Below, piece by piece: positions 32,474 through 35,575 of a stretch of 64,000 nt of DNA; position 1 is the stretch's first letter; every line of letters begins with the position of its first letter. The translations under genes were made by a program, and so were the position numbers. Under the pieces are notes generated by a model. The model worked only from the letters and a program-made list of their open reading frames with translations. It made no database searches and had not been told where the DNA came from. Origin of the DNA: an uncultured archaeon (lineage in GTDB: Archaea > Asgardarchaeota > Lokiarchaeia > Sigyniarchaeales > SOKP01); contig CAZALK010000007.1 in NCBI GenBank assembly GCA_964486045.1, positions 151,717 through 215,716 of the forward strand, read 5' to 3'.

Positions 32474-33964
32474 TTAAAGTTTGATAATTAGATTATTTTT
32501 CCTTTCTAAATCTTTTAATGACGAGGGTAGATGCTCAATTTTATTAAAATTTAAGTCTAGAATTTTTAATTTTGATAGCGAGGTAACTGAATCTGGGAGG
32601 GTTTCAAGCCGATTACCCCATAGATTTAATTCTTCCAAAGCTGATAAGGCTCCTATCCATATTGGAAGAGTCGTAAAATTATTCCAGCTTAGATTTAAGC
32701 TCTTAAGTGAGCTTAAATTTATTAAAGAAGATGGGAGAATACGTAATTCGTTATTTCTCAAATTTAATCTTTCTAGTGATTTAAGTGAACCAAATGATTC
32801 TGGAATTTCAACCAAGTTATTATCATACAGATCTAATTCTTTGAGTGAGGAAAAAGAACCCAACCAAGGGGGAAGATTTGATAATTTATTACCTCCTAAT
32901 CCTAATTTTTCTAATGATGAAAGAGGTTCTATGGCATGAGGTATTATTTTAAAATTATTCCACCCTAGCTCTAGCTCAGTTATTGAATTACTCAAATTTA
33001 CCGCTATACACCTCAATTTATTTCCATGTAAATCTAGAGTTTTTAAAGAAGAAAGTGATTTGATTGATTCAGGGAGATGTGATAGGACATTGTTTCTTAA
33101 ATTTAAATGCTCTAGTGATGATACTGATCCTATAGATTTTGGGAGCTTTCTTAATCTATTTGATTTAAGATTTAAAGTTTTTATTAGCGTAAAATTGTGA
33201 AGATTAGGAAGATTTACTAATTTGTTATAACTTAAATCCAAATACTCAATTGAATTATTAAACGTTTCAGGAATCTTAGTTAGGTGATTAAAACGCAGGT
33301 CACACATTTTAAGTTTTCTCAATGAAAAAATTGGTTCAAGGAAATTTTCAAGTTTATTAACTCCTGAACTATATCTCTCAATATTTGATAGATCTAATAC
33401 ACGGATTAAACCATCTTCATTATTCTTAAATTTGAAGTAACCAAATTTTATTTTCAAAAATGAAATAATGTGATAATTTATTAAAATTTCTGCAAGTTTA
33501 ATACTAGAGAAGTTTCTTATATTTTCCTTTTTAACAAAACTCTTCAGGATAGAATTAAACTGTTTTTTTTGAAGCTTCTTTAATTTACTAATTAAAATAG
33601 ATTTAGATTTTTCATTATCTATACTTGCTATTGTTGAAATAATTGTTGTCAAACACTTTAAAGATTTTTCATGTTCCAGAGCCCATATCATTGGATCTAG
33701 AGCTTTATCCTGATAATGATTTTTTAAAACCTTACAGGTTAAATTTCTAACGTCTTCATTTAATTCAGAAATTAGTAAATGTTCTAAGAATTTAAAAGTT
33801 CTTTCATCATTAATTTGTATTTTATTCAATATTTTAACGCTTTCTATTCGTGTTTCAACAACATCAGCATTTTCAATTAAAGTTAATATTAATTCAATAG
33901 CAGATGACTTATCTAAATCTTTATTCTTAAAATCTTGATAAATAGCATTTGGAGTTAAAGGCAT
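32474..33964 (-). CDS. Leucine-rich repeat protein with N-terminal HEAT-like region
   Basis: Many LxxLxLxxNxLxxLPxxIxxL repeats. Confidence 0.92.
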   Translation of the reverse strand: MPLTPNAIYQDFKNKDLDKSSAIELILTLIENADVVETRIESVKILNKIQINDERTFKFLEHLLISELNEDVRNLTCKVLKNHYQDKALDPMIWALEHEKSLKCLTTIISTIASIDNEKSKSILISKLKKLQKKQFNSILKSFVKKENIRNFSSIKLAEILINYHIISFLKIKFGYFKFKNNEDGLIRVLDLSNIERYSSGVNKLENFLEPIFSLRKLKMCDLRFNHLTKIPETFNNSIEYLDLSYNKLVNLPNLHNFTLIKTLNLKSNRLRKLPKSIGSVSSLEHLNLRNNVLSHLPESIKSLSSLKTLDLHGNKLRCIAVNLSNSITELELGWNNFKIIPHAIEPLSSLEKLGLGGNKLSNLPPWLGSFSSLKELDLYDNNLVEIPESFGSLKSLERLNLRNNELRILPSSLINLSSLKSLNLSWNNFTTLPIWIGALSALEELNLWGNRLETLPDSVTSLSKLKILDLNFNKIEHLPSSLKDLERKNNLIIKL

Positions 33965-33994: not shown

Positions 33995-35575
33995 TTAAAT
34001 TCTTTCAATAACCATACCACCCAATCTAATAGGACCACCTGTAGCGTTGTATATTTTTTCTGCTTTTCTCAATTTAGATTCACTTTGGGAATAGATTCTA
34101 AACACTAGATCTCCTTTCTTAATTTTTGCTCCTTGTTTTTTTATAATTTCTACGCCAGACATCTTGGAACTTGGACATCCCGCAGTTTTTGCTATTTGGT
34201 TGATTATTGAATTATTCACTTCAACTATATAACCGTCTTTTTTAGCAAAAAATTCTTTTAGACTTGGACCAATTTCAATATCTTCTGGCTTAACATTGGG
34301 ATTTCCCCCTTGGATTTCGATGATTTTTTTCATTTTTTCATAAGCCTTACCGGAATGTAAAATATCTTTTGCTAAGGTTTGACCTTCACCTTTTTGAGCT
34401 TTTCCACTCATTTCGAGAATCATTCCAGCTAAATCGGTGGATTTTTCTATTAAGGAATTAGGTCCAGCTTTGTAATCTCTAAGCAATATCAAAGCCTCTC
34501 TAGCTTCTAAGGCAGGTCCAACAGCATGTCCTATAGGTTGGTGAGCTAATGTTAGTGCACATTCTGATTCAATACCTACATTAGCTGCGATTTCTTTAAA
34601 TAAATAAGCGAATTGTTTTCCATTCTCTGGAGTTGGAAATTTAGTACCTTCTCCAACAGGAATATCAAGAACCAGTTTTTTAACACCCAATGAAAGTTTT
34701 TTAGTGAGAATTGAAGGTATCATAAGACCCACAGGATCCATATGTAGGGGACGCTCAATTTCAATTAGGACATTATCTGCGGGAGCTGTTTCAAGCGCCC
34801 CACCCCAAATTATACATGCATTTTCTTTGGAAACAATCTCATTTAAGTCGTGGGGGTTAAAAGCAACTGGTGCAAGAACTTCCATAGAATCTGCCGTTCC
34901 TGATGGTGATGTTATAGCTCTCGTCGAAGACTTTGGTATAGTTAAACCCGCTGCTGCAACAATTGGGACAATAATGAGAGAAACTTTATTACCAGGGACG
35001 CCACCGTTCAGCAAAAATTACTAACTGTAAATTTTTGTACTGTGTTTATCAAACACATCCATCCCAAAATAAAATATTTCCCCACTTCTAGTTTCTGCTA
35101 ATGTCAGAGCAGTCATTTCCTCGTTGTCCATCCCATTAATTGAAACTCCTGTTATAAATGCTGCCAGATCAATTCTAGATAATGATCCAGATACAGCGTC
35201 AGATACTATACTGTTTATTTCTTCACTTGAAAGTTTTTGTCCTTTAATCTTCTTTTTAATATGCCTGAAAGAATCTGGAGGTTCAGCAGGTTTTACTGAA
35301 ACAATCGTCTCATTTTTTAAACTCTTTTTTTCTCGTAAAATATCTAGAAAGATCCCAATTTCCCCAGAATCTACGACTGAGTTTGAGTAATCTATTTGGA
35401 TAATAGCTGTCCAAAATTTATCCTCTAAAGATCGTGATTTGATATTTTTAATAAAAATACGTTCTCCTGCTTTTTGTCCTAATTCTTGAGCATCTTTAAC
35501 ATTTAACACAACATCTCTTGTATTTCCAGTTTCAAAATTTATTTCTTTTACTTTCAGTTTCATATTTTCAACCAA
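33995..35575 (-). CDS. deoA: AMP phosphorylase (archaeal thymidine phosphorylase family), two putative exons: 35575..35037 and 35006..33995
   Basis: Two track ORFs lie in the same frame. Removing 30 nt restores DKHSTGGVPGNK. Also KSSTRAITSPSGTAD, PADN and LDIPVGEG; about 516 aa when joined. Confidence 0.9.
35007..35036 (-). other. Candidate 30-nt bulge-helix-bulge/loop-type mRNA intron
   Basis: Insert AAAAATTTACAGTTAGTAATTTTTGCTGAA has in-frame TAG and TAA, forms a hairpin, and has a CAGU/GCUG 4-bp helix with 3-nt bulges AC|A and AA|C. Confidence 0.75.

What the first reader, a model, noticed from the sequence alone, without database searches (positions are those of the whole stretch)
35007..35036. 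Candidate tRNA-type (BHB/BHL) intron in a protein-coding gene of an Asgard archaeon
Seen: the mRNA reads GAU AAA CAC AGU AC^AAAAAUUUACAGUUAGUAAUUUUUGCUGAA^C GGU GGC GUC CCU. The 30-nt insert splits the conserved DKHST-GGVPGN motif and carries in-frame UAG UAA, while both flanks remain intact and in frame. It folds as a 4-bp helix CAGU/GCUG, a 3-nt bulge ACA, an intron stem AAAAUUUAC/GUAAUUUUU and a 3-nt AAC. The immediately adjacent exon pairing is weak (BHL-like), with GGGAUG/CGUCCC pairing further out. Known: archaeal EndA cuts after the second nucleotide of each 3-nt bulge and RtcB ligates; mRNA introns of this kind are known mainly from crenarchaeal cbf5. Applying that rule gives AC+C = Thr and restores HSTGG exactly. 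Inference: EndA-dependent mRNA splicing in Lokiarchaeia, possibly gating nucleotide salvage. Similar introns may be hidden genome-wide as apparent pseudogenes.
Basis: partly seen in the sequence, partly recalled or inferred. Interest (0 to 1): 0.93.

Follow-up and report, generated by a model that had tools for sequence, protein, structure and literature searches.

The report
tRNA-type intron splitting Asgard AMP phosphorylase
The only AMP phosphorylase gene of this Loki-type Asgard archaeon is broken by a 30-base insert that very probably must be cut out of the messenger RNA by the tRNA-splicing enzymes, as in at least a dozen other genes of the genome; the papers I could search confirm such splicing inside an archaeal coding sequence only for cbf5.

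Summary
Confirmed. The 30-nt insert (35007-35036, minus strand) splits the DKHST|GGVPGN motif of the single-copy AMP phosphorylase. It carries in-frame TAG TAA, and removing it at the EndA cut sites gives a 512-aa protein, the usual length of its relatives. The same site is interrupted in 36 of 135 genomes of the family. All 60 distinct junctions (29-31 nt) stop the unspliced frame, and both exons stay under purifying selection (dN/dS 0.04-0.07). The 4-bp exon-intron helix and 9-bp stem covary: the His wobble base tracks intron position -3 in 50 of 50 genes, with 5 switches. The genome encodes a two-subunit EndA with the Aeropyrum-type specificity loop, and RtcB. A genome scan found about 15 more such inserts, including in RNA polymerase A', EF-2 and uL11. 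No RNA evidence was found. I found no paper on Asgard mRNA introns. This scan has found this class before on other DNA, including this same intron in another genome.

The parts
35037..35563 (-). Exon 1 of AMP phosphorylase (ATG at 35563 to the first two bases, AC, of the Thr codon in DKHST)
   Evidence: TIGR03327 positions 1-165; spliced product 512 aa, as in intron-less homologues
35007..35036 (-). 30-nt HBh' (relaxed bulge-helix-bulge) intron with in-frame TAG TAA
   Evidence: Absent from intron-less relatives as an exact 30-nt gap; 60 distinct homologous junctions
35039..35042 (-). Exon strand of the central 4-bp helix (CAGU: His wobble base plus Ser codon)
   Evidence: 97.6% of cells paired; U-A 32 versus C-G 19 at the first pair; Ser codon AGY in 50/50 intron-bearing genes, TCN in 5/16 intron-less ones
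35036..35038 (-). 5' 3-nt bulge AC^A; predicted 5' cut after the second base
   Evidence: sequence; cut rule from PMC2738675
35013..35035 (-). Intron hairpin: 9-bp stem (35035-35027 with 35021-35013) and 5-nt loop
   Evidence: 8 of 9 pairs show changes on both sides; 94.2% of cells paired
35009..35012 (-). Intron strand of the central helix (GCUG)
   Evidence: Last base covaries with the His wobble base in 50/50 genes, 5 changes each on the tree
35006..35008 (-). 3' unpaired AA^C; predicted 3' cut, C completes the Thr codon ACC
   Evidence: sequence; the cut gives Thr in all junctions examined
33995..35006 (-). Exon 2 of AMP phosphorylase (GGVPGNK to the stop)
   Evidence: TIGR03327 positions 167-500; median dN/dS 0.069 among intron-bearing genes

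Best explanation
The insert is an endonuclease-spliced mRNA intron. In the pre-mRNA, the last His base and the Ser codon pair with the 3' end of the insert to form the 4-bp central helix. A 3-nt bulge and a 9-bp intron stem close the intron side, and the exon side is open (relaxed HBh' form). The two-subunit EndA cuts after the second base of each 3-nt segment, RtcB joins the exons (AC + C = Thr), and the full 512-aa AMP phosphorylase is translated. Unspliced message gives a 180-aa fragment ending in the conserved KHSTGG motif. It is one of about 15 or more 27-32-nt introns of this build in the genome, tolerated because the host EndA removes them, and gained or lost repeatedly within one family. 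Shown: the insert, its conservation, covariation, selection on the exons, and the enzymes' genes. Inferred: cleavage, ligation and translation.
For: 36/135 family genomes in 10 genera carry an insert at this site, 0/19 in other families of the order by pattern search. All 60 distinct junctions have an in-frame stop; lengths are 30 (52), 29 (5) and 31 (3), and exon 2 keeps its length of 337 codons in nearly every complete copy. The central helix is 4/4 paired in 57/60. The worst case, L093, is an intron shifted by one base with its own perfect helix. Covariation. dN/dS 0.042 and 0.069 against 0.036 and 0.056 in intron-less genes. The gene is single-copy and two RuBisCO-family genes are present. 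EndA has two paralogues. The catalytic one best matches A. pernix EndA and keeps Y142/H150/K181, R174, W198 and the loop Lys59, equal to K44 (PMC3241643); the other lacks the His. RtcB is intact. A structure-blind search for inserts in the fetched loci placed 20 of 25 further inserts on a full HBh' motif. Single-copy rpoA' is split by a stop-bearing insert between profile positions 77 and 78, and uL11 by a 28-nt frameshifting one.
Against: No spliced transcript, circular intron or junction peptide was found; a search for cDNA-like contigs was negative. The fold is weak by energy alone. The exon-side helix of a canonical BHB is missing, so cleavage depends on a broad-specificity EndA that is inferred from sequence. 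Sequences are related: only 4-5 independent contrasts support the exon-intron pair (sign test p 0.125). A loose genome-wide motif scan shows no excess over shifted controls; only the strict 30-nt class is enriched.
Confidence: 0.92

Rival explanations
1. Ribosomal bypassing (gene 60 or byp style): the ribosome leaves at the Thr codon, slides over the hairpin and resumes at Gly, with no RNA cutting.
For: A stop codon and a hairpin follow the Thr codon; bypassing tolerates lengths that are not multiples of three (own knowledge).
Against: The landing triplet equals the take-off codon in 1/60 junctions and is a Thr codon in 2/60. The covarying helix pairs exon bases upstream of the take-off codon, which a ribosome would cover. 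Boundaries follow the EndA geometry in unrelated genes and in all three codon phases.
Confidence: 0.025
2. The RNA is spliced, but by something other than EndA and RtcB (another nuclease-ligase pair); or the insert is excised at DNA level in part of the population.
For: The exon-side helix is absent; intron-less alleles are scattered among intron-bearing ones.
Against: The geometry (4-bp helix, 3-nt bulge, cut after the second base) is that of EndA. There are no terminal direct repeats or shared sequence between inserts. Assemblies carry the insert as the consensus in dozens of genomes.
Confidence: 0.025
3. A split gene: the two halves are translated separately (restart at a TTG inside the insert, as gene callers assume) and assemble, or the second half works alone.
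For: An in-frame TTG at 35014 gives a 339-aa ORF, and public annotation lists many such products.
Against: In 21/60 junctions there is no ATG, GTG or TTG between the last stop and the GG motif. The break lies inside the conserved HSxGGVPGNK motif shared with the solved enzyme 4ga5. It does not explain exon-intron covariation, or the breaks in RpoA', EF-2 and uL11.
Confidence: 0.015
4. Pseudogene or assembly artefact.
For: All sources are metagenome assemblies; one apparent split relative was a 1-nt assembly error.
Against: The same site is interrupted in 60 distinct sequences from independent projects. dN/dS is below 0.1 on both exons, and only 1 of the full-length genes examined was dropped for a stop or N elsewhere. 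Essential single-copy genes carry the same kind of insert.
Confidence: 0.01
5. Stop-codon readthrough or another genetic code, giving a 10-residue insertion.
For: 52/60 inserts are 30 nt and so keep the frame.
Against: The stops are TAA, TAG and TGA at varying positions, often two in a row, and 8 junctions are 29 or 31 nt.
Confidence: 0.01

Closest known systems
cbf5 pre-mRNA intron of Desulfurococcales and Sulfolobales (Watanabe 2002; Yokobori 2009, PMC2738675)
   Same: Short intron inside a conserved motif of a protein-coding gene; relaxed BHB with cuts between the second and third bulge bases; host has a hetero-oligomeric EndA; patchy gain and loss.
   Different: Different gene, phylum (Promethearchaeota) and phase. 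cbf5 is the one confirmed coding-sequence case in the papers read, whereas here about 15 genes in one genome are hit, including rpoA', EF-2 and uL11, with a nearly fixed 30-nt build. cbf5 splicing is shown by cDNA and in vitro work; this one is not.
Non-canonical archaeal tRNA introns with HBh'/BHL motifs (Marck and Grosjean 2003; PMC3241643), including the heavily interrupted Asgard tRNA genes (bioRxiv 10.64898/2026.10.13.758758)
   Same: Same motif and cut rule; removed by a loop-bearing two-subunit EndA; repeated gains; nested or ordered removal is seen in relatives.
   Different: The substrate is mRNA, so exon bases of the helix are also codons. The preprint treats tRNA genes only (no mention of mRNA), and its most intron-rich lineages are Jordiarchaeia and Atabeyarchaeia.
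HVO_1309 5' UTR intron of Haloferax volcanii (PMC7714728)
   Same: BHB intron in an mRNA, cut by EndA.
   Different: It lies in the untranslated leader (46 nt) and does not break the reading frame; single case.
IRE1/RtcB splicing of XBP1 and HAC1 mRNA (own knowledge)
   Same: Short, frame-breaking, spliceosome-independent mRNA intron; RtcB ligation in animals.
   Different: Different nuclease and motif; regulated by stress, for which there is no evidence here.

Membership tests
EndA-spliced (BHB/HBh') archaeal intron | 4-bp central helix pairing exon end with intron end | tested here: met
   4/4 in 57 of 60 junctions; exon-intron covariation
EndA-spliced (BHB/HBh') archaeal intron | 3-nt bulge closed by an intron stem (h') | tested here: met
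   9-bp stem, 8 pairs with two-sided changes; strict genome scan gives 8 hits at bulge 3 and loop 5 against 0-4 in the other 41 size classes
EndA-spliced (BHB/HBh') archaeal intron | Cuts after the second base of each 3-nt segment restore the mature sequence | tested here: met
   AC+N = Thr and a 512-aa frame; same rule restores motifs in rpoA', EF-2, SelD and others
Canonical hBHBh' motif | Exon-exon helix (h) directly flanking the second bulge | tested here: not met
   First pair 0% paired, fourth and fifth 0%; no difference from intron-less genes; distal pairing not conserved. The motif is the relaxed HBh' form.
EndA-spliced (BHB/HBh') archaeal intron | Host encodes a broad-specificity two-subunit EndA and a ligase | tested here: met
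   Two EndA paralogues, catalytic triad and loop Lys conserved against A. pernix; RtcB intact. Substrate range is inferred from sequence.
EndA-spliced (BHB/HBh') archaeal intron | Spliced RNA or excised circular intron observed; cleavage in vitro | not testable with these tools
   No RNA reads on hand; indirect search for cDNA-like contigs negative
Group I / group II self-splicing intron or other Rfam family | Catalytic RNA core of hundreds of bases; Rfam match | tested here: not met
   30 nt; no Rfam match at E up to 1
Programmed translational bypassing element | Matching take-off and landing codons | tested here: not met
   1 of 60 junctions
AMP phosphorylase (TIGR03327) | Full profile coverage including the N-terminal extension | tested here: met
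   Halves cover 1-165 (112 bits) and 167-500 (447 bits); their sum exceeds the 535 cut-off; homologous to 4ga5. Activity not tested.

The most novel reading that the evidence does not exclude
One family of Loki-type Asgard archaea runs routine, obligatory, multi-gene mRNA splicing with the tRNA machinery. Roughly 30-nt introns of a standard build sit in a dozen or more genes per genome, including RNA polymerase, EF-2 and ribosomal proteins. They come and go between species, and can be stacked around 4-base exons that impose an order of removal.
Probability: 0.82. Interest if true: 0.92.

Novelty: new variant of a known kind. Interest (0 to 1): 0.84.

Why it matters
Protein-gene introns are treated as almost absent from archaea: the papers read name cbf5 and one 5' UTR case. 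Here they appear to be common and obligatory in a lineage close to the root of eukaryotes. That bears on how frame-breaking introns can spread and be tolerated without a spliceosome, and on the need to delay translation until splicing in a cell without a nucleus. It also gives a possible parallel to RtcB-ligated mRNA splicing in eukaryotes. In practice, public annotations of these genomes list the genes as truncated or hypothetical, which distorts metabolic reconstructions and marker-gene sets. The junction is sharply defined, so one RT-PCR or one search of sediment metatranscriptomes tests it.

Tried and rejected
1) Energy-based folding of the single sequence: not significant against shuffles.
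2) Loose genome-wide scan for HBh' motifs joining two open frames: no excess over shifted-cut controls. Only the strict 9-bp-stem class and the low-energy 30-nt class (12 against 1-4 at other bulge sizes) are enriched, so my list of further introns is a hand-checked lower bound.
3) Distal exon pairing GGGAUG/CGUCCC: not conserved.
4) Origin from another element of the genome: no copy of the insert beyond 16-nt chance matches; ARAGORN misses many of the genome's tRNAs (31 calls), so a tRNA-intron source is not excluded.
5) Search for spliced-cDNA contigs: the one 100% identical long/short protein pair was an intron-less gene with a 1-nt assembly error.
6) Bypassing, readthrough, restart and pseudogene readings: see rivals.
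7) My first guess of phosphomannomutase for the C1 candidate was wrong; it is SelD. Scan hits at C6:11641, C12:130588, C23:3960 and C7:62120 were not validated.
8) Seven literature searches found no report of mRNA introns in Asgard archaea; the library lacks most subscription journals.
9) Gain versus loss: at least 9 changes are forced on the tree, but sampling is biased toward intron-bearing rows and direction is not resolved.

Full report
Observation. The window's minus strand carries an AMP phosphorylase gene from ATG 35563 to the stop at 33995. Its upstream frame ends at TAG 35023-35021. The two halves match TIGR03327 positions 1-165 and 167-500 with no gap or overlap. Removing 35007-35036 gives a 512-aa product with DKHSTGGVPGNK restored; unspliced, the frame yields 180 aa. 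Intron-less homologues are mostly 509-512 aa, and public gene calls for intron-bearing copies are 338-339-aa fragments, often named hypothetical. The break lies in the motif shared with the solved archaeal enzyme 4ga5. The gene has no second copy in the genome. Record titles of related loci are mostly Promethearchaeota. The described helix, bulge and stem are in the sequence, but alone the fold is no better than shuffles.

Related genomes. An insert at the same site occurs in 22 of 54 genomes of the genus and in 36 of 135 genomes and 10 genera of the family. It occurs in none of 19 genomes of other families of the order, by exact pattern. Genome and metagenome scans gave 60 distinct junctions: 52 of 30 nt, 5 of 29 and 3 of 31. 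Every one stops the unspliced frame, with TAA, TAG or TGA at varying places. Pairs of loci about 92% identical differ by one exact 30-nt gap. Median pairwise dN/dS among intron-bearing genes is 0.042 for exon 1 and 0.069 for exon 2, against 0.036 and 0.056 without the intron. These are working genes, not pseudogenes.

Structure. On 52 aligned junctions the 4-bp helix plus 9-bp stem is paired in 95.3% of cells, with 78 cells changed on both sides. None of 500 shuffles reached this, and slid registers gave 32-48%. The most telling pair crosses the exon-intron boundary: the wobble base of the His codon and intron position -3 are U-A in 32 and C-G in 19. On a tree built without the junction region each changes five times, they agree in 50 of 50 genes, and all 4 independent contrasts go the same way, which is too few for significance alone (p 0.125). 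The Ser codon is AGY in all 50 intron-bearing genes but TCN in 5 of 16 intron-less ones. The one junction that fails the helix (L093) is an intron placed one base downstream with its own perfect helix. The motif is therefore the relaxed HBh' form.

Machinery. The genome has two EndA paralogues and an intact RtcB. One paralogue is closest to Aeropyrum pernix EndA among solved structures. It keeps the residues matching Y125, H133, K164, R157 and W183, and the loop lysine K44, which PMC3241643 shows is needed to cut non-canonical introns. The other lacks the catalytic His, as a structural subunit does. A recent preprint also finds two-subunit EndA across Asgard genomes, but studies tRNA genes only.

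Genome-wide. A loose scan for motifs that join two open frames shows no excess over controls. A strict scan gives 8 hits at bulge 3 and loop 5 against 0-4 in all other size classes. Splicing at the predicted sites restores hallmark motifs. Both halves are contiguous on the family profile for RNA polymerase A' (77|78), SelD (145|146), a thiolase (92|94), a Ras-like GTPase (57|60) and a BadF-type ATPase (135|137), and both halves match one amidohydrolase family. For EF-2, uL11, adenylate kinase, a second GTPase, two oxidoreductase subunits, mevalonate kinase, a MoxR-type ATPase and a PurM-like gene, one half matches the family up to or near the junction, or the motif is restored by eye. These nine are less firmly checked. 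rpoA' is single-copy, and the uL11 insert is 28 nt and shifts the frame. A search that located inserts in fetched loci by protein homology alone, without using structure, placed 20 of 25 further inserts on a full motif. These include a second EF-2 site, seen as a 30-nt stop-bearing stretch in 14 genomes. One of the exceptions, a 65-nt insert in rpoA' of G063, resolves into a 30-nt intron, a 4-base exon and a 35-nt intron whose helix forms only after the first is removed.

Mechanism. Most likely (0.92) EndA cuts the pre-mRNA after the second base of each 3-nt segment and RtcB joins the exons. Shown: insert, stops, conservation, covariation, selection, enzyme genes. Inferred: cleavage, ligation, translation. 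Bypassing fails because landing and take-off codons match in 1 of 60 cases; restart fails because 21 of 60 junctions have no start codon between the stop and the GG motif. Readthrough fails on the 29- and 31-nt forms. There is no Rfam match. No spliced RNA was found; a hunt for cDNA-like contigs was negative. A role in gating nucleotide salvage is unsupported: two RuBisCO-family genes are present, but close relatives lack the intron and the same inserts hit unrelated housekeeping genes. On the gene tree presence changes at least 9 times, with intron-less alleles mostly at the tips; direction is unresolved. One pair is 3% apart in distal exon 2 but 15-23% apart around and upstream of the junction, which suggests allele replacement by recombination.

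Comparison. It works like the cbf5 intron of Crenarchaeota. PMC2738675 reports no confirmed splicing for other genes, only predictions, and PMC7714728 adds one 5' UTR intron in Haloferax and names cbf5 as the only other case. Searches found no paper on Asgard mRNA introns. It meets the testable features of an EndA-spliced intron in relaxed form, and differs from cbf5 in lineage, number of genes and fixed size. I class it as a new variant of a known kind. This scan has noted the class before, in this genome and others, including this same intron in another genome. Those notes are not used as evidence; my genome scan was written before I read them.

Verdict. Observation confirmed, interpretation supported except for the outer helix and the regulatory guess. 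Interest 0.84.

Noticed in passing
G000:C13:44101-44130 (+), L125: 30-nt HBh' insert with a stop in the single-copy RNA polymerase A' gene; the same site in G017 and G045; 85-nt inserts four bases downstream in G059 and G022.
   Followed up: yes
L165 (G063 rpoA'), also L172 (G043): The 65-nt insert in L165 resolves into a 30-nt intron, a 4-base exon and a 35-nt intron; the second helix forms only after the first intron is removed. L172 looks alike but did not pass my thresholds.
   Followed up: partly
G000:C13:92018 (+), L126; L205-L218: EF-2 intron in the AHIDHGKT motif, shared with G041, G018 and G042; a second 30-nt site near QMTDSD in 14 genomes; G018 has both.
   Followed up: yes
G000:C5:238662 (+), L127: Ribosomal protein uL11 is split by a 28-nt frameshifting insert with an HBh' fold.
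   Followed up: partly
G000 C1:759271, C3:186175, C3:187694, C1:354340, C1:29542, C7:54809, C5:233468, C11:28707, C12:175128, C1:321841, C20:4176, C5:195271: Further 27-32-nt candidates in SelD, thiolase, MoxR-type ATPase, two Ras-like GTPases, BadF-type ATPase, adenylate kinase, mevalonate kinase, two oxidoreductase subunits, an amidohydrolase and a PurM-like gene.
   Followed up: partly
L093:352-423: AMP phosphorylase intron of different sequence placed one base downstream of the common site, with its own perfect helix: an independent gain or a slide.
   Followed up: partly
L235 versus L238: Intron-bearing and intron-less alleles are 3% apart in distal exon 2 but 15-23% apart around and upstream of the junction, suggesting a recombination tract.
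   Followed up: partly
L149 and L153 (rpoA' codon 42): 30-nt insert with a perfect stem but only 3 of 4 central-helix pairs (one G-A).
   Followed up: no
window 32474-33964 (-): A 496-aa HEAT/leucine-rich-repeat protein starts 30 nt after the AMP phosphorylase stop and keeps that position in relatives. Its NCBIfam hits to secretion effectors are repeat matches far below cut-off.
   Followed up: no
G000 whole genome: ARAGORN finds only 31 tRNA genes, many with introns and implausible anticodons, suggesting heavily interrupted tRNAs.
   Followed up: no
G000:C1:69363-70241 and C7:175547-176389: Two RuBisCO large-subunit family genes; forms not determined.
   Followed up: no
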